From: a phage
Length of the DNA stretch: 64,000 nt
Reading direction: 5' to 3' (one strand)
Sequence record: PZ179880.1
Shown: piece by piece, positions 20,153-47,607 of the stretch
Layout: every line of letters begins with the position of its first letter
How positions within the stretch are numbered: position 1 is the stretch's first letter
Made by a program: the position numbers and the translations under genes
Notes under the pieces: model-generated
What the model saw: the letters and a program-made list of their open reading frames with translations, nothing else
The model's database searches: none
What the model was told of the DNA's origin: nothing

Positions 20153-20467
20153 CTAAAAGAAACTTCTTTCACAATTTTTTCCACTGAACCATGCACTTAC
20201 CGCTTTCTTGGTCTCAGGAGCAGTGTTATCCATAAACCATTCAAAGGCAGCCTTTTTGTGATTCTGGAGGGCTTCTCGGGCTTTAATCTGCTCACGGTCT
20301 ATTAACACTAACATATGAGCCTTTCTTGTCACCATGGGCTTCTTATGATTTTTTGAATACTCCCAGTCATTTGTCCATCGCATTGTCGTTGCGAACTTAA
20401 ATACTGCTTCTTTAATTTTAGTTTCGTAAATTTCACGAGCCTTTGAGTATAACATCATTACCTCCAT
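20153..20467 (-). CDS. Hypothetical protein (104 aa)
   Basis: ORF. Confidence 0.45.
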   Translation of the reverse strand: MEVMMLYSKAREIYETKIKEAVFKFATTMRWTNDWEYSKNHKKPMVTRKAHMLVLIDREQIKAREALQNHKKAAFEWFMDNTAPETKKAVSAWFSGKNCERSFF

Positions 20468-20556: not shown

Positions 20557-21537
20557 TTATTTCAGAAGAGTAACCTCAGCAATTTCTTCCCAACCGTTTT
20601 TGTCGGTCATAATAAAGTCAGCAAGATAAAGAGCAGTACGCAGTGAAACATTGCGTAAACGATTAACATTAACTTTCATCCATGATAATGCTTTATAAGT
20701 TTCTTCATCAGAAAGACCGCGCTTTTGCATCATGTCAGTTGAAAGAATAACATCTTCAACCCTGACCATAATTTCTTCATTAGTGTGAACACCCAAATCC
20801 AAATAAACCGAGCGGGACACTAATGCTTGTAAATGTGGAGCAAGTTTAGTACCACGGTCTAATTCGCGGTCAATGTCAACGTTTGTGATAAAAACAATCG
20901 TTCCTTTAAATTCAAACTCACGCTCAATGCCTTTTTCTTCTAAGTAAGAAGATGCGGTGCTCCAGCAGACTTTACGGGTCTCTCCAGTGTCCAGAGCAGC
21001 TTTCAGAAGATTAAGAATGTCCATATCAGAGAAAACATCCACATCATCAATCAAAAGGACAGAATTCTCTTCACGATTATTCCAAAGCTGCTCATAAAGA
21101 CCAATACCAGAGATTTTACCATTAATGCTTTTATATTCAATGTATCCAATATCATTTGCTTTATTTAAAGCTTTATCTAAAGAATACGTTTTACCAATAC
21201 CTGCTGCGCCAGAGATAATTAATGAACGAATATTTCCATTAATAATACCATTCGTCATCATTCCCATAACATTAAATCTTTTATTAATGCGGGTTTTCAT
21301 ATCTTCATACGATTCTTTAATTTCTTCAACTTTTACACCATCATATGAAATATCTGATTTGTAAACCCAAACACCGCGACGTTTACCGTCAATTTCAACA
21401 AAAACTTTACCATCTCCTTGTGCATCTACCGGAGCATTATCTGGGAACCATTCGCCTAAGAGCTCAAAAGTTCCAGAGATTTCTTTACCGAAGTAGATAC
21501 CCTTATTGATAGTTACAGTTTTCATTTTATTCTCCAA
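20557..21537 (-). CDS. P-loop AAA-type ATPase (326 aa)
   Basis: Walker A GAAGIGKT and Walker B VLLIDDVD. Confidence 0.6.
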   Translation of the reverse strand: MENKMKTVTINKGIYFGKEISGTFELLGEWFPDNAPVDAQGDGKVFVEIDGKRRGVWVYKSDISYDGVKVEEIKESYEDMKTRINKRFNVMGMMTNGIINGNIRSLIISGAAGIGKTYSLDKALNKANDIGYIEYKSINGKISGIGLYEQLWNNREENSVLLIDDVDVFSDMDILNLLKAALDTGETRKVCWSTASSYLEEKGIEREFEFKGTIVFITNVDIDRELDRGTKLAPHLQALVSRSVYLDLGVHTNEEIMVRVEDVILSTDMMQKRGLSDEETYKALSWMKVNVNRLRNVSLRTALYLADFIMTDKNGWEEIAEVTLLK

Positions 21538-21561
21538 TTTTACATTTGTTTTGATAGGGTA

Positions 21562-21591
21562 ATAGTATCACACTACTACCCTGCTGTAAAC
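21562..21591 (-). promoter_or_regulatory. sigma70-type early promoter with inverted repeat around the -10
   Basis: Minus strand TGTTTACAgcagggtagtagtgtgaTACTAT; inverted-repeat arms 21556-21564 and 21575-21583. Confidence 0.4.
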
Positions 21592-21594
21592 AAT

Positions 21595-21858
21595 TTATTT
21601 TAATGTTTGCCAAATTTTTACTGCTTCGCGACGAGATACTTCTACGGCGCCAAGTTCTATAGCTTTTTGGCGTCGCCGAGCGTGTAAGTCATAATGTTTA
21701 ATGCGTTTATCTTGAAACCAAGAACGTTTCATTCCTATTGCTTCTGCCATTTCATGAAGCTCTTCAATATCTCCATCAGTGAACATATGACAATTTTTAG
21801 TTGGATGACCGCGAAGTTTCCATCCATGATTCATTAAAACATCTACGTAAACTGTCAT
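21595..21858 (-). CDS. Hypothetical protein (87 aa); by recollection resembles DUF4031-type proteins
   Basis: Motifs CHMFTD...EELHEMAEAIGMKRSWFQ...HYDL; family assignment from memory, unverified. Confidence 0.45.
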   Translation of the reverse strand: MTVYVDVLMNHGWKLRGHPTKNCHMFTDGDIEELHEMAEAIGMKRSWFQDKRIKHYDLHARRRQKAIELGAVEVSRREAVKIWQTLK

Positions 21859-22004
21859 TGATTCTGCTCCAAATATGTTTCTATAATTTTCTGAGCGAGA
21901 TAAACTGCATTATCTTCAGTTGCATCTTCTAAGAAACTTTCAAAACACTCTGAAATTTCTTCTGTGTCAATCAACTTTTTTACTTCAATTGGTGTAATTT
22001 TCAT
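21855..22004 (-). CDS. Hypothetical small protein (49 aa from MKITPIEV)
   Basis: The 5' part of the track ORF is occupied by the promoter at 22042-22070, so the start is placed at the next Met. Confidence 0.4.
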   Translation of the reverse strand: MKITPIEVKKLIDTEEISECFESFLEDATEDNAVYLAQKIIETYLEQNQ

Positions 22005-22041
22005 TTTGTTTTTCCGTTTAAGTGTTTGTTTTGATAGTTGT

Positions 22042-22070
22042 ATAGTACCATAAAGCTTTATGCTTGTAAA
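22042..22070 (-). promoter_or_regulatory. sigma70-type early promoter (TTTACA, 17 nt, TACTAT)
   Basis: Minus strand TGTTTACAagcataaagctttatggTACTAT; spacer contains the palindrome CATAAAGCTTTATG. Confidence 0.4.
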
Positions 22071-22100
22071 CAATTTTGTGAAAAATTTTTGAAATAAAAA

Positions 22101-22120
22101 AGGGAGCCCGAAGGCTCCCT
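22101..22120 (-). terminator. UUCG-tetraloop hairpin after the nucleotidyltransferase-like gene
   Basis: agggagcccgaaggctccct perfect stem-loop. Confidence 0.45.
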
Positions 22121-22121
22121 A

Positions 22122-23135
22122 TCATTTATAATAACTTCGGTGGTTTTCAAGATAAACCCTCTCAAGGAAGTCATCCCAAAAACCCATGTCTACTTTTTGC
22201 TGCATACCGTTCTTAGAAGCTTCAGTAGATGCTGCTTCTACTTGATCGACCACATCTTCCAAAAACTCTTGAACCGTTTTAAATGGATGTTTACCCAACT
22301 TCACGTCGAGAATAAATGGAGCATCTTGGAGTGGATAAACCAAGTCACCAGTTTTGTAAATTTCCAATAGTTGGAGTCCACCACGGCAAGCATGACTCAG
22401 AGCTTTCCAGTCAATACCTTCATTGGCTTCGGCCTTACGAGCACGTTCACCGTATTCAGCATCTAATTTGTTCAGTGACTGCTTAAGCTCAATAAGAGAA
22501 AGCGTTGTCTGATATTTACGACCCAACACTGTGTAGAACGTCTGTGGGCCTGTTTTCTCATGATTATGGAACACCCATTCACAGAATTCGTTTTCTGGAA
22601 GACGATGCTTAATATCTTCAACTTTAGTACGACGCTGCTTAATGGAACCGTCTTCTTGGTAATCAACCCATTGCTCAGGGATTTGATTAACTACTTTCAA
22701 TACATCACGTAATGCAGCCAAACGAGAACCCTTAACGCCGTATTTAGAAGCTTGCTTACGGACATATCCTAAATAGGATTTCATGTTAGTCGTATAAAAA
22801 CGAGAACGGTTGTCTTGAATAAACTTCCACACATCAGGCAAATCAGATTTAACCACTAGTTCAGGTGGAGTGTGAAGCATATCTAACGCTACAGTTTCAC
22901 CATCTGCTGCTAATTTAAAGAAATACTTAAGACTATACAATTCGTGGTCAATATCATCTTTAGTGTTTTTAGATGATGTGTTGTTAGTGTTTTTACTCAT
23001 GTGCTCTTTAACATTTCCGATAAGAATATCACGAGCAGGAGGAACAAAGATTTCTTTAAAATCTACATCAGATTCTGGGGTAGAAGTTCCATAAAGATGA
23101 CTACCAAAATAGCTTTTCATTACTGTTTTCATCAT
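22122..23135 (-). CDS. Nucleotidyltransferase-fold protein (337 aa)
   Basis: N-terminal GSHLYGTSTPESDVDFKEIF fits the pol-beta-type NTase signature (GS...DxD). Confidence 0.55.
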   Translation of the reverse strand: MMKTVMKSYFGSHLYGTSTPESDVDFKEIFVPPARDILIGNVKEHMSKNTNNTSSKNTKDDIDHELYSLKYFFKLAADGETVALDMLHTPPELVVKSDLPDVWKFIQDNRSRFYTTNMKSYLGYVRKQASKYGVKGSRLAALRDVLKVVNQIPEQWVDYQEDGSIKQRRTKVEDIKHRLPENEFCEWVFHNHEKTGPQTFYTVLGRKYQTTLSLIELKQSLNKLDAEYGERARKAEANEGIDWKALSHACRGGLQLLEIYKTGDLVYPLQDAPFILDVKLGKHPFKTVQEFLEDVVDQVEAASTEASKNGMQQKVDMGFWDDFLERVYLENHRSYYK

Positions 23136-23593
23136 TCAGCCTTATATTCAATAACAGGACATACTTTAGCTTTACGAGCTTTTAAAAATTCGACGATAAT
23201 CGATTTCTTGGGTTGAATAGGAGGTAAACCTTTATACGCCCTATCAATATTTTCTACGTGTAAAGCATAATCCTTTTTCCATTTATAATCTTTATATTTT
23301 TCACGCAAATGCGCAGGAATAACAAATGAACCGATAATAAGTAAAACAAGCAAAATGGCAAGTATAAATGCTGATGGAATAAGAGTCCATAAACTACCAA
23401 AAATAAGCCATTTCTGTATGATTTCTGCACAGATGATAGTTAGACCTACGAGTATAGTACATCCGAAAAAAGAAACGAAAAATGTAGGGATAACAATAGA
23501 CCAAAAGTATGCGCATAGTGTCTTAGGTCGTTTCCATTCGTCGTTAAACATTTTAAATAATTTATAGTGCCAAGAGCTTTCATTAATAATCAT
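23132..23593 (-). CDS. Hypothetical membrane protein (153 aa)
   Basis: Several hydrophobic helices (FFVSFFGCTILVGLTIICAEII, LILAILLVLLIIGSFVI). Confidence 0.5.
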   Translation of the reverse strand: MIINESSWHYKLFKMFNDEWKRPKTLCAYFWSIVIPTFFVSFFGCTILVGLTIICAEIIQKWLIFGSLWTLIPSAFILAILLVLLIIGSFVIPAHLREKYKDYKWKKDYALHVENIDRAYKGLPPIQPKKSIIVEFLKARKAKVCPVIEYKAE

Positions 23594-38872: not shown

Positions 38873-38948
38873 TGGTCGAGGCAGTAGGGATCGAACCTAC
38901 GACCTAGGACTTAGAAGGTCCTTGCTCTTCCTTCTGAGCTATGCCCCG
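38873..38948 (-). tRNA. tRNA-Arg (anticodon UCU), CCA encoded
   Basis: Manual cloverleaf: acceptor CGGGGCA/TGCCTCG, D-arm TAGCTCAG, anticodon loop CTTCTAA, T-loop GGTTCGATCC. Confidence 0.85.
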
Positions 38949-38951
38949 TAA

Positions 38952-39027
38952 TTGGGTGACCGATGGGAGTCGAACCCATGACTACGAGAATCACAATCTC
39001 GAGTTCTACCAACTGAACTACGGCCAC
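38952..39027 (-). tRNA. tRNA-His (anticodon GUG), discriminator C73, no encoded CCA
   Basis: Acceptor GTGGCCG/CGGTCAC, anticodon loop TTGTGAT, T-loop GGGTTCGACTCCC. Confidence 0.75.
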
Positions 39028-39120
39028 ATTAATACCTACTCCAACAATCAAGATGTCTTCACACGAAATTAAGAGAAGAGTGATCAGTTCAACCCCTATA
39101 ATCGCGTCAAGTAGGTATTA
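39028..39120 (-). ncRNA. Unassigned structured element inside the tRNA operon (not a tRNA)
   Basis: 11-bp perfectly complementary closing stem (TTAATACCTAC / GTAGGTATTAA) enclosing about 70 nt; no T-loop or D-loop. Confidence 0.3.
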
Positions 39121-39141
39121 ATGTGACAGTTGTCACAAATT

Positions 39142-39216
39142 TGGCGGACGTGATAGGATTCGAACCTATAACCAATCGCTTAACAGGCGATCGCTCTGCC
39201 ATTGAGCTACACATCC
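39142..39216 (-). tRNA. tRNA-Asn (anticodon GUU), CCA encoded
   Basis: Acceptor GGATGTG/CACGTCC, anticodon loop CTGTTAA, T-loop GGTTCGAATCC. Confidence 0.8.
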
Positions 39217-39220
39217 AAAT

Positions 39221-39307
39221 TGGTGGGGAGTGGTGGAGTCGAACCACCCGAGTCGCAATGACAATGGATTTACAGTCCACACCGCTACCTCTACGGGATA
39301 ACTCCCC
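39221..39307 (-). tRNA. tRNA-Tyr (anticodon GUA), class II with long variable arm, CCA encoded
   Basis: Acceptor GGGGAGT/ACTCCCC, anticodon loop CTGTAAA, variable arm about 15 nt, T-loop GGTTCGACTCC. Confidence 0.75.
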
Positions 39308-39317
39308 CAAATTAATT

Positions 39318-39392
39318 TGGTGGCCCTGGGTGGAATTGAACCACCATCTGGCGATTATGAGTCGCTTGCTTGAACCTTCCAGCTACAGGGCC
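39318..39392 (-). tRNA. tRNA with anticodon CAU; probably the Ile (AUA-reading, lysidine-type) species rather than Met
   Basis: Acceptor GGCCCTG/CAGGGCC with C4-G69 and C5-G68, anticodon stem-loop GCGACTCATAATCGC resembling bacterial tRNA-Ile2. Confidence 0.75.
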
Positions 39393-39393
39393 T

Positions 39394-39469
39394 TGGTGCT
39401 GATTGACGGAATCGAACCGCCGACCTTCTCATTACAAGTGAGTTGCTCTACCTACTGAGCTAAATCAGC
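39394..39469 (-). tRNA. tRNA-Thr (anticodon UGU)
   Basis: Acceptor GCTGATT/AATCAGC, D-arm TAGCTCAGTAGG, anticodon loop CTTGTAA. Confidence 0.85.
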
Positions 39470-39474
39470 AAAAC

Positions 39475-39564
39475 TGGCGGAGGCGATAGGATTTGAACCT
39501 ATGAGTCGCCGGAGCGACTGCCGGTTTTCAAGACCGGTGCATTAAACCACTCCGCCACGCCTCC
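39475..39564 (-). tRNA. tRNA-Ser (anticodon UGA), class II
   Basis: Acceptor GGAGGCG/CGCCTCC, anticodon arm CCGGTCTTGAAAACCGG, long variable arm. Confidence 0.85.
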
Positions 39565-39566
39565 AG

Positions 39567-39640
39567 TCTCCGTGGCAGGATTTGAACCTACGACATTCTG
39601 CTCCCAAAGCAGACGCTCTACCAAACTGAGCTACACGGAG
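39567..39640 (-). tRNA. tRNA-Pro (anticodon UGG), no encoded CCA
   Basis: Acceptor CTCCGTG/CACGGAG, anticodon loop TTTGGGA, T-loop GGTTCAAATCC. Confidence 0.85.
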
Positions 39641-39650
39641 TAAATTAAAT

Positions 39651-39724
<74 letters not shown>

Positions 39725-39728
39725 AAAT

Positions 39729-39816
39729 TTGGTGCGAGAAGTGGGACTCGAACCCACAAGGAAATCATTCCGCAGCATTTTAAGTGCTGTGCCTTTACCA
39801 ATTTGGCCATTCTCGC
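39729..39816 (-). tRNA. tRNA-Leu (anticodon UAA), class II
   Basis: Acceptor GCGAGAA/TTCTCGC, D-arm TGGCCAAATTGGTAAAGGC, anticodon loop CTTAAAA, long variable arm. Confidence 0.85.
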
Positions 39817-39817
39817 G

Positions 39818-39890
39818 CTGGGAATAAAGGACTCGAACCTTTGCATCCTGGAATCAAAATCCAGTGCCTTACCAACTTGGCTAATTCCCA
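39818..39890 (-). tRNA. tRNA-Gln (anticodon UUG), U1-A72 first pair, no encoded CCA; abuts tRNA-Leu
   Basis: Acceptor TGGGAAT/ATTCCCA, D-arm GCCAAGTTGGTAAGGC, anticodon loop TTTTGAT. Confidence 0.8.
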
Positions 39891-43997: not shown

Positions 43998-44806
43998 ACT
44001 TTGTTTGCAGAGAAACGTTTTCCTTTGGAGTAGAAGCTTTGGAGTGGCATTAACACAACGTTCGCCCAGTCTTTCGGGGCGATTTCAACAAGGCTACCCA
44101 TGATATTACCAGGTATATATGCCTTAATCATTTGATCTGCACCCCTAAATCCTTTCACTTGACTCCAATCAATTTTTAATTTCGTTTTATTAGTAATAGT
44201 AGGTGTATTTGAATATTGCTTTAAAAGCTCTTCTAGAAACTGTTGACGAGCTTTAGGTGGAATATAGTGCAAGTTCAATCCATACATTAAATTATGTTTA
44301 CCTAAACCGAGGTAAATTATCAAAGGAAATTTATCCCAATAAGGAAGAGTTTCCTTGTGTTTAGCATCGTAAGCAAAAGCATATATTCGTCCCGGCTGCG
44401 GGCGAACAACTTTATGTCCTTTTACCTGCTTAATAGTTTCAGCAAACCACTTTCTGGTTTTATTATTAATTGCTGCACCTTCATTACGAATTTTATCACG
44501 CAACGTTTGCCTGAATGAATTTATCATAAGCAGTTGTCTTTCTTGCTTATTGAGTTTATTCATTGGTTTTGATTCAAGCTTTTGAATCTTTTCAGCTGTT
44601 TTAATTCCTGAAGCATATTTTGACATTGCCGAAGTAAACGTAGAATATTTAATTCCTTTTTCTTCAGCAAATTGCTTTCCTGTCATTCCTTTTGCTTTGG
44701 CCTTTTTGTATTCAAGACCTATCTGAATCCATTTCTTTTCGTTTAATGATTGCTTAACCTTTGGAACTTGGGGAGTGCTTTCATTAATTATTTGAAAAAT
44801 AGCCAT
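43979..44806 (-). CDS. 2: DNA end-protector protein gp2 (275 aa)
   Basis: Gene order and size; stop overlaps the gene 4 start. Confidence 0.85.
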
Positions 44807-45258
44807 TATGCCCCCTTAAAGCCAAGAGCTCGTAATCCATCTTCTGTTAAAATTCTAAATTTTATTCCACGCTTTTCAGCTAAAGATTGTGCTGCTTTCC
44901 ATTTGTCAGTATTAACGGAATATGTATAGATTTCATTCATAAATCTTTTCTTCGCTGCAGTTGTTAGATGTGCTGGTTTAACTGGTGGTTGTGTTTCTTT
45001 TTTAGGTTTTATTTCAATAAAAAATTCTTGTCCAGAAGAATCTTTCATCCAAATATCCATGAAGTATCTACGTTTTTTCCCTTCTGCATTACAAAAATAA
45101 GGAATTACTGCTGTTTCACTACCCCATGCAATAATTTCTGGATTTTTATCTAACCATTCAAAAAAGAATTTTTCCCAATTTGATCTATACGTAATTTTTT
45201 TAGGGTCACCTCTATATTTTGATATATTTTTAGGAACCCATTTTCCAGAATATGCCAT
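44806..45258 (-). CDS. 4: Head completion protein gp4 (150 aa)
   Basis: Gene order and size (150 aa). Confidence 0.85.
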
Positions 45259-45269
45259 TGGATTCTCCT

Positions 45270-45277
45270 TATAAATA
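45270..45277 (+). promoter_or_regulatory. Late promoter TATAAATA for gene 53
   Basis: Exact TATAAATA about 30 nt upstream of the gene 53 start. Confidence 0.55.
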
Positions 45278-45285
45278 GATAATAT

Positions 45286-45293
45286 ATTTATAA
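45286..45293 (-). promoter_or_regulatory. Late promoter TATAAATA (minus strand) for genes 4/2/3
   Basis: Reverse complement of tatttata gives TATAAATA about 28 nt upstream of the gene 4 start. Confidence 0.5.
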
Positions 45294-45305
45294 ACAGGAG
45301 GGCCC

Positions 45306-45896
45306 ATGCTCTTTACATTTTTTGATCCGATTGAATATGCGGCCAAAACGGTGAATAAAAACGCGCCGACTATTCCTATGACAGATATTTTTAGAAACTA
45401 TAAAGACTATTTCAAACGTGCTCTTGCGGGATATCGCTTACGTACTTATTATATTAAAGGTTCACCACGCCCGGAAGAATTAGCAAATGCTATATATGGA
45501 AATCCACAGTTGTATTGGGTTTTATTGATGTGTAATGATAATTATGATCCGTATTATGGATGGATTACTTCACAGGAAGCTGCTTATCAAGCATCTATAC
45601 AAAAATACAAAAATGTAGGTGGAGACCAAATAGTATATCATGTGAATGAGAATGGTGAAAAATTTTATAATTTAATATCATACGATGATAATCCATATGT
45701 TTGGTATGATAAAGGCGATAAAGCTAGAAAATATCCTCAATATGAAGGAGCACTTGCTGCTGTTGATACGTATGAAGCTGCTGTTCTTGAAAATGAAAAA
45801 CTTCGTCAAATAAAAATAATAGCAAAATCAGACATCAATTCATTTATGAACGACCTTATACGTATAATGGAGAAATCTTATGGAAATGATAAGTAA
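45306..45896 (+). CDS. 53: Baseplate wedge protein gp53 (196 aa)
   Basis: Gene order and size. Confidence 0.9.
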   Translation: MLFTFFDPIEYAAKTVNKNAPTIPMTDIFRNYKDYFKRALAGYRLRTYYIKGSPRPEELANAIYGNPQLYWVLLMCNDNYDPYYGWITSQEAAYQASIQKYKNVGGDQIVYHVNENGEKFYNLISYDDNPYVWYDKGDKARKYPQYEGALAAVDTYEAAVLENEKLRQIKIIAKSDINSFMNDLIRIMEKSYGNDK

Positions 45897-47607
45897 TAAC
45901 CTTAATTGGTTTGTTGGTGTTGTTGAAGATAGAATGGACCCATTAAAATTAGGTCGTGTTCGTGTTCGTGTGGTTGGTCTGCATCCGCCTCAAAGAGCAC
46001 AAGGTGATGTAATGGGTATTCCAACTGATAAATTACCATGGATGTCAGTTATTCAACCTATAACTTCGGCAGCAATGTCTGGAATTGGAGGCTCCGTTAC
46101 TGGTCCGGTAGAAGGAACTAGAGTTTATGGTCATTTTTTAGACAAATGGAAAACTAACGGAATTGTCCTTGGCACGTATGGTGGGATAGTTCGCGAAAAA
46201 CCTAATAGACTCGAAGGATTTTCTGACCCAACTGGACAGTATCCTAGACGTCTAGGAAATGATACTAACGTATTAAACCAAGGCGGAGAAGTAGGATATG
46301 ATTCGTCTTCTAACATTATCCAAGATAGCAATCTAGACACTGCGATAAATCCCGATGATAGACCACTATCAGAGATTCCAACTGATGATAATCCAAATAT
46401 GTCAATGGCTGAAATGCTTCGCCGTGATGAAGGATTAAGACTAAAAGTTTATTGGGATACCGAAGGATATCCGACAATTGGTATTGGTCATCTTATCATG
46501 AAGCAGCCAGTTCGTGATATGACCCAAATTAATAAAGTTTTATCAAAACAAGTTGGTCGTGAAATTACCGGAAATCCAGGTTCCATTACAATGGAAGAAG
46601 CGGTAACTTTATTTGAACGCGATTTGGCTGATATGCAACGTGACATTAAATCACATTCTAAAGTTGGCCCAGTTTGGCAAGCAGTTAATCGTTCTCGTCA
46701 AATGGCGTTAGAAAATATGGCATTCCAAATGGGCGTTGGTGGCGTAGCTAAATTTACCACAATGTTAACTGCTATGTTAGCCGGAGATTGGGAAAAAGCA
46801 TATAAAGCCGGTCGTGATTCATTGTGGTATCAACAAACAAAAGGCCGTGCATCCCGTGTTACCATGATTATTCTTACAGGGAATTTGGAATCATACGGTA
46901 TTGAAGTTAAAACACCAGCTAGGTCTTTGTCAGCAATGGCTGCTACTGTAGCAAAGTCTTCTGACCCGGCTGACCCTCCTATTCCGAATGATTCGAGAAT
47001 TTTATTCAAAGAACCTGTTTCTTCATATAAAGGTGAATATCCGTATGTTCACACAATGGAAACTGAAAGCGGTCATATTCAGGAATTTGATGATACTCCG
47101 GGGCAAGAACGATACAGATTAGTTCATCCAACTGGAACGTATGAGGAAGTATCACCATCAGGAAGAAGAACGAGAAAAACTGTTGATAATTTGTATGATA
47201 TAACAAATGCTGATGGTAATTTTTTGGTAGCCGGCGATAAAAAGACTAACGTCGGTGGATCAGAAATTTATTACAACATGGATAATCGTCTTCACCAAAT
47301 AGATGGAAGCAATACGATATTTGTGCGTGGAGATGAAACCAAGACGGTTGAAGGTAATGGAACTATCCTAGTCAAAGGTAATGTTACTATTGTAGTTGAA
47401 GGTAATGCTGACATTACAGTTAAAGGGGATGCTACCACTTTAGTTGAAGGAAATCAGACTAATACAGTAAATGGAAATCTTTCTTGGAAAGTTGCTGGAA
47501 CAGTTGATTGGGACGTTGGCGGTGATTGGACAGAAAAAATGGCATCTATGAGTTCTATTTCATCTGGTCAATACACAATTGATGGATCGAGGATTGACAT
47601 TGGCTAA
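45880..47607 (+). CDS. 5: Baseplate hub/cell-puncturing protein gp5 with lysozyme domain (575 aa)
   Basis: N-terminal OB region, internal T4-lysozyme-like segment (MLRRDEGLRLKVYWDTEGYPTIGIGHL), C-terminal VxGxxxxxV beta-helix repeats. Confidence 0.95.
   Translation: MEMISNNLNWFVGVVEDRMDPLKLGRVRVRVVGLHPPQRAQGDVMGIPTDKLPWMSVIQPITSAAMSGIGGSVTGPVEGTRVYGHFLDKWKTNGIVLGTYGGIVREKPNRLEGFSDPTGQYPRRLGNDTNVLNQGGEVGYDSSSNIIQDSNLDTAINPDDRPLSEIPTDDNPNMSMAEMLRRDEGLRLKVYWDTEGYPTIGIGHLIMKQPVRDMTQINKVLSKQVGREITGNPGSITMEEAVTLFERDLADMQRDIKSHSKVGPVWQAVNRSRQMALENMAFQMGVGGVAKFTTMLTAMLAGDWEKAYKAGRDSLWYQQTKGRASRVTMIILTGNLESYGIEVKTPARSLSAMAATVAKSSDPADPPIPNDSRILFKEPVSSYKGEYPYVHTMETESGHIQEFDDTPGQERYRLVHPTGTYEEVSPSGRRTRKTVDNLYDITNADGNFLVAGDKKTNVGGSEIYYNMDNRLHQIDGSNTIFVRGDETKTVEGNGTILVKGNVTIVVEGNADITVKGDATTLVEGNQTNTVNGNLSWKVAGTVDWDVGGDWTEKMASMSSISSGQYTIDGSRIDIG

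What the first reader, a model, noticed from the sequence alone, without database searches (positions are those of the whole stretch)
20557..23135. AAA-type ATPase, DUF4031-like protein and nucleotidyltransferase-fold protein in one early cluster
A 326-aa P-loop ATPase (GAAGIGKT / VLLIDDVD), an 87-aa protein I recall as DUF4031-like, and a 337-aa protein with an N-terminal pol-beta-type nucleotidyltransferase signature (GSHLYGTSTPESDVDFK) lie in a co-directional cluster served by early promoters at 21562-21591 and 22042-22070. Nucleotidyltransferase-fold proteins in phages include RNA-repair enzymes and signalling-nucleotide modifiers, so this could be a counter-defence or RNA-repair module. 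No function is evident from sequence alone.
Basis: partly seen in the sequence, partly recalled or inferred. Interest (0 to 1): 0.6.

Follow-up and report, generated by a model that had tools for sequence, protein, structure and literature searches.

The report
Three unlinked T4 accessory genes
These are the already catalogued phage T4 genes nrdC.10 and nrdC.11, with a small mobile two-gene insert (one gene carrying DUF4031, a domain of unknown function) between them; they are neighbours in a variable genome region, not a conserved working unit.

Summary
All three ORFs, the quoted motifs and both promoter-like sites are present. The window is a T4-like phage (genus Tequatrovirus), 98-99% identical to deposited genomes.

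- **ATPase (nrdC.10):** a generic AAA+ ATPase with no specific clade assignment.
- **87-aa protein:** a true DUF4031 (PF13223).
- **NTase (nrdC.11):** scores above threshold for Pfam RlaP (PF10127). A December 2025 preprint already lists T4 NrdC.11 in this RNA-repair nucleotidyltransferase family.

The "one module" reading fails.

- A strong terminator separates nrdC.11 from the downstream genes.
- DUF4031 and a 49-aa ORF form a 480-bp cassette bounded by two copies of a T4-type early promoter (a PeSL, "promoter-early stem-loop", element). T4 itself lacks the cassette.
- nrdC.10 lies beside nrdC.11 only in close enterobacterial relatives: 33/40 loci at 60% NTase identity or above, 1/38 below.
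- None of 80 cellular NrdC.11-like loci carries either partner.

Distant NrdC.11 relatives instead sit next to Rnl1-like ligase, Pnkp, RtcB, a CCA-adding enzyme, or (33/80) a canonical RlaP. This supports RNA 3'-end repair for the NTase alone.

Verdict: ordinary and already annotated. The functions of nrdC.10 and DUF4031 remain unknown.

The parts
22122..23135 (-). nrdC.11 orthologue: 337-aa Pol-beta-superfamily nucleotidyltransferase of the RlaP family (PF10127), divergent 'NrdC.11-type' subfamily
   Evidence: The ORF is. It is 99% identical to T4 NrdC.11. Pfam RlaP scores 44.3 bits against a cut-off of 23, covering residues 7-135. It matches phrog_388 'nucleotidyltransferase' full-length. 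G11-S12, D23, D25, D61 and D63 are invariant down to 29-36% identity. The start codon overlaps the stop of the upstream 153-aa membrane-protein gene as ATGA.
22101..22120 (-). Intrinsic terminator hairpin (8-bp stem, 6 GC pairs, T-run) directly after nrdC.11; the stem-loop half of a PeSL element
   Evidence: Found by the scan. A related phage record annotates it as a terminator of -18.9 kcal. It is identical in T4.
22042..22070 (-). T4-type early promoter (TTTACA-N17-TACTAT with an upstream TG), copy 1; drives orf49 and DUF4031
   Evidence: It matches the PST/T4 PeSL promoter consensus TTTACW-N17-TAYWAT (PMC4122927).
21855..22004 (-). 49-aa ORF (phrog_6888) of unknown function; first gene of the cassette, translationally coupled (ATGA) to DUF4031
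   Evidence: It is annotated as a 150-bp CDS in phage G9062. It travels with DUF4031 in 9 of the 10 IMG/VR loci that carry DUF4031.
21595..21858 (-). 87-aa DUF4031 (PF13223) protein; small alpha/beta domain with invariant D6, H24, H35, Q49, H55-Y56-D57; function unknown
21562..21590 (-). T4-type early promoter, copy 2 (a diverged direct repeat of copy 1, 480 bp away); drives nrdC.10
   Evidence: Direct-repeat families D1, D3 and D5 all have a spacing of 479-480 bp.
20557..21525 (-). nrdC.10 orthologue: 322-aa AAA+ ATPase with an N-terminal ~70-aa beta-rich domain, Walker A GAAGIGKT, Walker B LLIDDVD, and an inserted hairpin before sensor 1 carrying invariant R188/W192

Best explanation
The region is part of the nrdC-mobD variable ('hyperplastic') early region of a T4-like phage (genus Tequatrovirus). 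It holds three separately transcribed accessory units. They are neighbours through inherited gene order and cassette insertion, not because they work together.

1. **nrdC.11** is a divergent RlaP-family Pol-beta nucleotidyltransferase. Its most likely activity (inferred, not shown) is adding one or two nucleotides to RNA 3'-OH ends. That would restore a nucleotide removed by 'smart' anticodon nucleases such as RloC. The phage's own Pnkp would first heal the ends and Rnl1 would then seal the tRNA. Both are encoded far away in the genome.
2. **A 480-bp cassette (49-aa ORF plus DUF4031)** is bounded by two copies of a terminator/early-promoter (PeSL) element. It was gained or lost by recombination between those repeats. 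DUF4031 is probably a small enzyme or metal-binding protein, judged from its invariant Asp and His residues. Its target is unknown.
3. **nrdC.10** is an orphan AAA+ ATPase, probably a ring-forming remodelling motor. Its substrate is unknown. In distant phages its homologues sit among replication and nucleotide-metabolism genes.
For: **Identity**
- The region is 98-99% nucleotide-identical to T4-like phages, and the genes map to T4 nrdC.10 and nrdC.11.

**Transcription units**
- A terminator follows nrdC.11.
- An early promoter lies in front of orf49/DUF4031 and another in front of nrdC.10.
- The early-promoter motif occurs 15 times, always on the minus strand, against 0.39 expected.

**Cassette**
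- T4 has one terminator-promoter copy in a 114-bp gap between nrdC.11 and nrdC.10. The window has two copies 480 bp apart flanking orf49 and DUF4031.
- This matches published PeSL-mediated shuffling, including the promoter consensus (PMC4122927).
- The cassette occupies two different positions: 5 loci between NTase and ATPase, and 5 loci 1.7-2 kb downstream of the ATPase.

**Non-linkage**
- Phage records with a match: NTase 1518, ATPase 1312, DUF4031 327.
- ATPase within 10 kb of the NTase: 4/4 loci at >=90% NTase identity, 29/36 at 60-90%, 1/38 below 60%.
- Distant ATPase loci in Vibrio phages D481 and D509 and Pseudomonas phage PAC2 have no NTase within 12-20 kb. In D509 the homologue sits among clamp, clamp-loader, dUTPase and helicase genes; in D481 it lies between nrdAB and a topoisomerase II gene.
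- 0/80 cellular NrdC.11-like loci carry nrdC.10 or DUF4031.

**NTase function**
- Pfam RlaP hit is above threshold, and the catalytic G-S...D-x-D plus a third Asp are conserved.
- Relatives lie next to Rnl1-like ligase with a Pnkp-like kinase (L081-83, L160), RtcB (5/80), bacterial Pnkp (5/80), and a CCA-adding enzyme (L006, L062).
- Pseudomonas RlaPs add 1-2 NMP to RNA 3'-OH ends, and T4 NrdC.11 falls in cluster 5 of that paper's PF10127 sequence-similarity network (PMC12776372).
- RlaP distribution mirrors RNA ligases in jumbo phages (PMC7824862).
Against: - NrdC.11 is far from the biochemically characterised RlaPs. Pairwise BLAST gives E=1.1, and hhalign gives 49% probability over the NTase domain only.
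- The Pfam profile matches only positions 23-142 of 249, so the activity is an extrapolation.
- In bacteria, the NrdC.11-type protein is often paired with a canonical RlaP (33/80 loci). The phage loci lack that partner, so the two may have different, complementary roles.
- No RNA ligase or Pnkp lies in this window. In T4 they are 50-80 kb away.
- nrdC.10 is adjacent to nrdC.11 in most enterobacterial T-even relatives, so a lineage-specific partnership cannot be excluded from sequence alone.
- Neither the function of DUF4031 nor that of nrdC.10 is established by any result here.
Confidence: 0.72

Rival explanations
1. One reading: the AAA+ ATPase, DUF4031 and the NTase form one RNA-repair or counter-defence module. 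The ATPase would remodel or deliver damaged RNA, DUF4031 would heal the ends, and the NTase would add nucleotides.
For: - The genes are co-directional and adjacent, and all lie behind early promoters.
- nrdC.10 lies within about 0.1-3.3 kb of nrdC.11 in 33/40 viral loci with NTase identity of 60% or more.
- When present in T4-like phages, DUF4031 always lies within about 2 kb of nrdC.10.
- DUF4031 has enzyme-like invariant Asp and His residues.
Against: - A strong terminator separates the NTase from the other two genes.
- T4 itself lacks DUF4031.
- The DUF4031 cassette is flanked by recombinogenic promoter repeats and occupies two alternative sites.
- Only 1/38 loci with NTase identity below 60% has the ATPase within 10 kb.
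- Some phages with NTase 82% identical to the window's have lost nrdC.10 from the locus: L013, L015, L047.
- Distant ATPase loci lack the NTase.
- 0/80 cellular loci carry either partner.
- DUF4031 elsewhere sits in unrelated prophage contexts.
Confidence: 0.07
2. NrdC.11 is not an RNA-repair enzyme. Instead it nucleotidylylates a different target, such as a host or phage protein, a small molecule, or a signalling nucleotide, as other minimal Pol-beta NTases do (MntA-type antitoxins, aminoglycoside NTases, CD-NTases).
For: - Only the generic NTase core aligns with canonical RlaP.
- The 200-residue C-terminal region has its own conserved motif, YGxR...GxDWKxxSHxxR, which the RlaP profile does not match.
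- In T4-like phages and in Aeromonas phage Riv-10 the gene is not next to RNA-repair genes. In Riv-10 its neighbours include the NAD-salvage genes NadM and Nampt.
- In bacteria it is paired with a canonical RlaP, which suggests a non-redundant role.
Against: - The Pfam RlaP score is nearly twice the gathering threshold.
- The MntA model scores 13 bits against a cut-off of 60.
- There are no PADLOC or CD-NTase hits.
- Recurrent neighbours in distant relatives are RNA-end enzymes: Rnl1-like ligase, Pnkp, RtcB, CCA-adding enzyme, HD and metallophosphoesterase proteins.
Confidence: 0.18
3. nrdC.10 is a replication or recombination accessory AAA+ ATPase, such as an alternative clamp-loader-like, RarA-like or initiator-like factor, unrelated to RNA repair.
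For: - There are weak profile hits to phage clamp loaders (phrog_168 and phrog_5846, E about 1e-4) and to Hda. Cdc6 is the best PDB sequence hit, but at E=0.23 it is not significant.
- Some database sources name homologues RarA or clamp loader.
- In Vibrio phage D509 the homologue lies between the clamp, clamp-loader, regA and dUTPase genes and a DNA helicase. In D481 it lies between nrdAB and topoisomerase II.
- The motif ALVSRSVYLDL resembles the clamp-loader 'SRC' arginine-finger motif. This is an inference from the sequence.
Against: - All sequence hits are below family thresholds.
- The nrdC.11-mobD.3 block is deletable in T4 (PMC9825161). nrdC.10 itself was not named among the deleted blocks quoted there.
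Confidence: 0.3

Closest known systems
T4 NrdC.11 / RlaP family (PF10127, RNA ligase-associating Pol-beta nucleotidyltransferases; Pseudomonas PfRlaP and PaRlaP characterised in PMC12776372)
   Same: - The window protein is 99% identical to T4 NrdC.11, which that paper places in cluster 5 of its PF10127 sequence-similarity network.
- It shares the NTase core (hGS...DxD plus a third Asp).
- Relatives show the RNA-repair neighbours expected of the family: Rnl1, Pnkp, RtcB.
   Different: - It is 337 aa, against about 266 aa for canonical RlaP.
- Only the N-terminal 130 residues align to the profile.
- It is not adjacent to a ligase in T4-like phages.
- In bacteria it occurs as a separate paralogue immediately upstream of a canonical RlaP (33/80 loci).
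- Its activity has not been tested.
T4 nrdC.10 (phrog_1250), an orphan AAA+ ATPase
   Same: - It is 99% identical to the T4 protein.
- The AAA+ core has Walker A and B motifs, sensor 1, an Arg-containing SRS motif and a helical lid.
   Different: - It matches no curated AAA+ family above threshold.
- It has its own N-terminal beta-rich domain and an inserted hairpin before sensor 1 with an invariant Trp.
- Many GenBank records mislabel it 'thioredoxin'.
PeSL (promoter-early stem-loop) cassettes of T4-type phages (Arbiol et al. 2010, PMC2839356; Comeau et al. 2014, PMC4122927)
   Same: - A terminator hairpin, a TTTACW-N17-TAYWAT early promoter and a Shine-Dalgarno sequence flank a small ORF block that is present or absent between close relatives.
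   Different: - The downstream copy has lost the canonical GC-rich stem-loop. It is a 'half' PeSL, a state those authors also describe.
- I did not check whether this particular indel is listed in their supplementary tables.
DUF4031 (PF13223)
   Same: - The whole 87-aa protein is a full-length, high-scoring match.
- It is a standalone small protein like most of the family.

Membership tests
RlaP (PF10127) | Whole-protein score above Pfam's gathering threshold | tested here: met
   The score is 44.3 bits against a cut-off of 23, E=2.4e-11.
RlaP (PF10127) | Pol-beta NTase catalytic signature: hG[GS], then DxD 9-13 residues later, plus a third carboxylate | tested here: met
   G11-S12, D23-x-D25 and D61/D63 are invariant in homologues down to 29-36% identity. 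These residues align with the canonical RlaP GSRAWGF...DSDYDV...DxNGWD motif.
RlaP (PF10127) | Full-length similarity including the C-terminal helical domain | tested here: not met
   Only profile positions 23-142 of 249 align. hhalign against 13 canonical RlaPs aligns 107 N-terminal columns only, with 49% probability. Pairwise BLAST gives E=1.1.
RlaP (PF10127) | Gene neighbourhood with RNA ligases or RNA end-healing enzymes | tested here: inconclusive
   This is not met in the window or in T4: no Rnl1, Rnl2 or Pnkp lies in the window, and in T4 they are 50-80 kb away. It is met in some distant relatives: L081-83 and L160 (Rnl1 plus Pnkp), RtcB in 5/80, Pnkp in 5/80, and a CCA-adding enzyme in L006 and L062.
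RlaP (PF10127) | Adds 1-2 NMP to RNA 3'-OH ends (Mn2+-dependent) | not testable with these tools
   This activity is shown only for Pseudomonas RlaPs (PMC12776372).
AAA+ ATPase superfamily (nrdC.10) | Walker A, Walker B, sensor 1, arginine finger, alpha/beta core plus helical lid | tested here: met
Clamp-loader / RarA / initiator AAA+ clades (nrdC.10) | Specific best match to one clade by profile or fold | tested here: not met
   All sequence hits are below the cut-offs. Fold hits spread over the MoxR, MCM, sigma-54 activator, DnaA, Cdc6, RFC and RuvB clades with similar scores.
DUF4031 (PF13223) | Score above the gathering threshold over the whole domain | tested here: met
   The score is 76.8 bits against a cut-off of 25.6, covering residues 12-83 and profile positions 7-73 of 76.
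PeSL mobile regulatory cassette | Stem-loop terminator followed by an early promoter matching TTTACW-N17-TAYWAT and a Shine-Dalgarno sequence, flanking an indel between close relatives | tested here: met
   The terminator is at 22101-22120 and the promoter at 22042-22070, with a second promoter copy 480 bp downstream. T4 has a single copy and no cassette. The consensus comes from PMC4122927.
Anti-defence or defence-related NTases (CD-NTase, MntA-type) and known defence proteins | Profile match to defence-system or antitoxin models | tested here: not met
   None of the four proteins has a PADLOC hit. The MntA model scores 13.2 bits against a cut-off of 60.
   The numbers are given in the best explanation.

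The most novel reading that the evidence does not exclude
The NrdC.11-type NTase is not simply a copy of canonical RlaP. It may be one half of a widespread, undescribed two-NTase system: 33 of 80 cellular loci encode it immediately upstream of a canonical RlaP. T-even phages would have captured only this half. In the enterobacterial lineage they might have recruited the adjacent AAA+ ATPase NrdC.10, and sometimes DUF4031, as lineage-specific partners to counter anticodon nucleases that excise nucleotides.
Probability: 0.08. Interest if true: 0.6.

Novelty: already known. Interest (0 to 1): 0.2.

Why it matters
As it stands, little is new. The genes are catalogued T4 ORFs, and the NTase's family assignment and proposed RNA-repair role are already published.

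The useful outcome is negative. The three genes should not be treated as an operon-like module. The DUF4031 gene is a shuffled cassette.

Three open questions can be tested directly in T4 genetics:
- Does NrdC.11 let T4 survive RloC-type nucleases that remove a nucleotide?
- What do the orphan AAA+ ATPase NrdC.10 and the very widespread DUF4031 (7264 representative clusters) do?
- Why do bacteria pair an NrdC.11-type NTase with a canonical RlaP?

Tried and rejected
- **PDB sequence and profile searches:** nothing significant for any of the three proteins.
- **Fusion partners of DUF4031:** the ten longest of the top 150 representatives carry no second Pfam domain.
- **Bacterial and metagenomic DUF4031 neighbourhoods:** phage- or prophage-like with no recurrent informative partner.
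- **PADLOC scan of all four proteins:** no hits.
- **NCBIfam scan:** only sub-threshold noise.
- **Original RlaP paper (Burroughs & Aravind 2016):** I tried to read it, but it is not held. It is cited only through PMC12776372 and PMC7824862.
- **Genome-contig scan:** It succeeded with a 3-sequence alignment.
Full report
**What is there**

The window has about 35% G+C. Its genes run on the minus strand up to about 45 kb. The 2.9-kb region around the finding is 98-99% identical at the nucleotide level to many Tequatrovirus (T4-like) genomes, including ECO07P4, Yersinia phage fPS-90 and G9062.

Comparison with the annotated T4 genome identifies the 326/322-aa ORF as nrdC.10 and the 337-aa ORF as nrdC.11. 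Both are 99% identical to the T4 proteins.

The mechanical ORF for nrdC.10 starts at a TTG. All 26 aligned homologues begin at the ATG four codons later, which is preceded by GGAG, so the protein is 322 aa.

A fourth gene was overlooked. It is a 49-aa ORF (phrog_6888) at 21855-22004, and its stop overlaps the DUF4031 start codon as ATGA.

**Domain checks**

The 87-aa protein is an unambiguous DUF4031 (PF13223, E=1.5e-21).

The 337-aa protein matches Pfam RlaP, 'RNA repair pathway DNA polymerase beta family' (PF10127), at 44.3 bits against a gathering cut-off of 23. It also matches phrog_388 'nucleotidyltransferase' full-length.
- The catalytic G11-S12, D23-x-D25 and D61/D63 are invariant in homologues down to 29-36% identity.
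- The match covers only the N-terminal NTase domain, profile positions 23-142 of 249.

The ATPase has only sub-threshold AAA hits by sequence.
- A confident AlphaFold model (pLDDT 88) shows a small N-terminal beta-rich domain followed by an AAA+ core and a helical lid.
- It is therefore an AAA+ ATPase of unassigned clade.

DUF4031 also models confidently (pLDDT 92.8) as a small alpha/beta domain.
- Its invariant D6, H24, H35, Q49 and H55-Y56-D57 look like an active or metal-binding site. That is an inference.

**Transcription architecture**

- The pattern occurs 15 times in the window, all on the minus strand, against 0.39 expected from shuffles. They are credible T4 early promoters.
- A strong intrinsic terminator (8-bp stem, 6 GC pairs, T-run) sits immediately after nrdC.11 at 22101-22120. 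A related record annotates it as a terminator of -18.9 kcal.
- nrdC.11 has no promoter of its own. It is translationally coupled (ATGA) to the upstream 153-aa membrane-protein gene.

The region therefore contains three units:
- [...membrane gene-nrdC.11]-terminator;
- early promoter (P_E)-orf49-DUF4031;
- early promoter (P_E)-nrdC.10.

**The DUF4031 gene is a shuffled cassette**

In T4, nrdC.11 and nrdC.10 are separated by only 114 bp, containing one terminator plus early promoter. There is no DUF4031 gene.

Aligning the T4 gap with the two window promoter regions shows how they relate.
- T4 is identical to the window's upstream copy through the -10 box.
- T4 then continues into the nrdC.10 ribosome-binding site, which in the window follows the downstream copy.

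Three direct-repeat families in the window all have a spacing of 479-480 bp. They define a roughly 95-nt diverged repeat flanking orf49 and DUF4031.

This is the PeSL (promoter-early stem-loop) mechanism of modular shuffling described for T4-type phages (PMC2839356, PMC4122927).

Consistent with mobility:
- orf49 homologues accompany DUF4031 in 9 of 10 IMG/VR loci.
- The cassette lies between the NTase and ATPase in 5 loci, and 1.7-2 kb downstream of the ATPase in 5 others.
- In the phage collection, DUF4031 matches 327 records, against 1518 for the NTase and 1312 for the ATPase. Only 159 records have a copy at 90% identity or more, against 494 records with the NTase at 95% or more.

**Are the ATPase and NTase a pair?**

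I anchored on the NTase in 78 IMG/VR contigs with 10-kb flanks and looked for nrdC.10 within the flank.

| NTase identity to the window | Loci with nrdC.10 within 10 kb |
|---|---|
| >=90% | 4/4 |
| 60-90% | 29/36 |
| <60% | 1/38 |

Further observations:
- Three loci with NTase 82% identical to the window's (L013, L015, L047) have lost nrdC.10, and nrdC.9-like sequence follows the NTase instead.
- Aeromonas phage Riv-10 has the NTase but no nrdC.10 within about 25 kb on either side.
- Anchoring on the ATPase gives the converse result. Vibrio phage D509 has its homologue between the clamp, clamp-loader, regA and dUTPase genes and a helicase gene. D481 has it between nrdAB and topoisomerase II. 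Pseudomonas phage PAC2 has it among hypothetical genes. None has an NTase within 12-20 kb.
- In 80 bacterial and archaeal loci encoding full-length NrdC.11-like proteins (30-54% identity), neither nrdC.10 nor DUF4031 occurs within 6 kb.

Adjacency is therefore confined to one phage lineage. Inherited synteny explains it.

**What the NTase probably does**

Distant NrdC.11 relatives have RNA-end-processing neighbours:
- a Pnkp-kinase-like gene plus an Rnl1-like ligase directly upstream in viral contigs L081-83;
- an Rnl1-like ligase followed by Pnkp, both directly downstream of the NTase, in L160;
- a P-loop kinase, a CCA-adding enzyme and a hydrolase in Vibrio phage 11895-B1;
- RtcB in 5/80 cellular loci, bacterial kinase-phosphatase-ligase Pnkp in 5/80, HD_4 in 5/80 and metallophosphoesterase in 4/80.

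This agrees with the literature:
- RlaP was named for its association with RNA ligases.
- In jumbo phages its distribution mirrors the ligases (PMC7824862).
- Pseudomonas RlaPs add one or two NMPs to RNA 3'-OH ends. The authors of that paper propose them as antidotes to 'smart' ribotoxins such as RloC, which remove a nucleotide.
- The product is compatible with 5'-phosphate ligases, the class to which T4 Rnl1 belongs (class assignment from my own knowledge).
- That paper places T4 NrdC.11 in cluster 5 of its PF10127 sequence-similarity network (PMC12776372).

The inferred T4 pathway has three steps: Pnkp heals the ends, NrdC.11 restores the missing nucleotide, and Rnl1 seals. None of this has been shown for NrdC.11.

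Caveats:
- NrdC.11 is very distant from canonical RlaP: BLAST E=1.1, and hhalign 49% probability over 107 NTase-domain columns only.
- T4 pseT, rnlA and rnlB lie 50-80 kb away, and none is in the window.

**Noticed along the way**

In 33 of the 80 cellular loci, a canonical full-length RlaP (PF10127 E=4e-73 for the representative scanned) lies immediately downstream of the NrdC.11-type gene, often overlapping it. No phage locus, nor the window, has this partner. The two paralogues therefore probably have complementary roles, which tempers direct transfer of the Pseudomonas biochemistry to NrdC.11.

**DUF4031 and nrdC.10 remain unknown**

DUF4031 is very widespread, with 7264 representative clusters.
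- It is nearly always a standalone protein of about 90-120 aa. The ten longest of the top 150 representatives carry no second Pfam domain.
- In metagenomic and bacterial contigs it sits in phage- or prophage-like early regions without a consistent partner.
- Only one paper in the library mentions it, and only as an annotation.

nrdC.10 appears in the literature only as a weak AAA match (PMC1524935). The nrdC.11-mobD.3 block is among the large T4 fragments found deleted in viable genome-reduced T4 mutants (PMC9825161). No PADLOC model matches any of the four proteins.

**Verdict**

The genes are known T4-family ORFs, 98-100% identical to deposited sequences that carry the same annotations ('nucleotidyltransferase', 'DUF4031 domain-containing protein').

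The proposed three-gene module is not supported. The RNA-repair idea survives for the NTase alone and is already published as a hypothesis.

Novelty is 'already known' and interest is low. The residual interest lies in the untested role of NrdC.11 against nucleotide-excising anticodon nucleases, the bacterial NrdC.11-type/RlaP tandem, and the unknown functions of nrdC.10 and DUF4031.

Noticed in passing
L097-L176 (cellular loci), e.g. L126:6001-6978 followed by L126:6977-7777: In 33 of 80 bacterial loci, an NrdC.11-type NTase is followed immediately by a canonical full-length RlaP, often with overlapping stop and start codons. The representative RlaP scores PF10127 E=4e-73 and is about 266 aa. 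This tandem two-NTase pair occurs in Acetobacteraceae, Rhodospirillales, Babeliales, Chlamydiales and others. Phage loci and the window have only the NrdC.11-type gene.
   Followed up: partly
L081:5166-8064 (also L082, L083); L160:1135-3999; L006:4805-8921: Uncultured viral contigs L081-83 encode, contiguously, a Pnkp-kinase-like gene, an Rnl1-like RNA ligase and an NrdC.11-like NTase. L160 has the NTase, then an Rnl1-like ligase, then Pnkp. Vibrio phage 11895-B1 (L006) has a P-loop kinase, a CCA-adding enzyme interrupted by an HNH intron, a hydrolase and the NTase.
   Followed up: partly
window 38873-39890: A cluster of 11 tRNA genes lies on the minus strand: Arg, His, Asn, Tyr, Met, Thr, Ser, Pro, Gly, Leu and Gln. 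T4 has 8 and phage PST has 9 (PMC4122927). The cluster coincides with the G+C peak of 0.42 at 38-40 kb.
   Followed up: no
window, 15 sites from 9023 to 41212, minus strand: The T4/PST early-promoter pattern TTTACW-N17-TAYWAT occurs 15 times, always on the minus strand, against 0.39 expected. Most sites have an upstream TG (extended -10). This gives a ready map of early transcription units in the window.
   Followed up: partly
window 23132-23593: Where T4 has the HNH homing endonuclease gene mobD overlapping the start of nrdC.11, this phage has a 153-aa predicted membrane protein (phrog_944 / phrog_22816) translationally coupled to nrdC.11. This is another indel in the same variable region.
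   Followed up: no
GenBank records under hits H4, H9-H15, H70, H75, H103 and others: Many deposited phage genomes label nrdC.10 and nrdC.11 homologues 'thioredoxin'. This looks like an annotation error propagated from the locus names nrdC.x. Neither protein has a thioredoxin domain.
   Followed up: no
window about 44000-46000: GC skew changes sign from negative to positive at about 45 kb. This marks the switch from leftward early genes to rightward, presumably late, genes.
   Followed up: no
window 20153-20467: The gene downstream of nrdC.10 (nrdC.9, 104 aa) is a clear member of DUF7203 (PF23833, E=2.6e-15). This is another conserved T4-family protein of unknown function.
   Followed up: no
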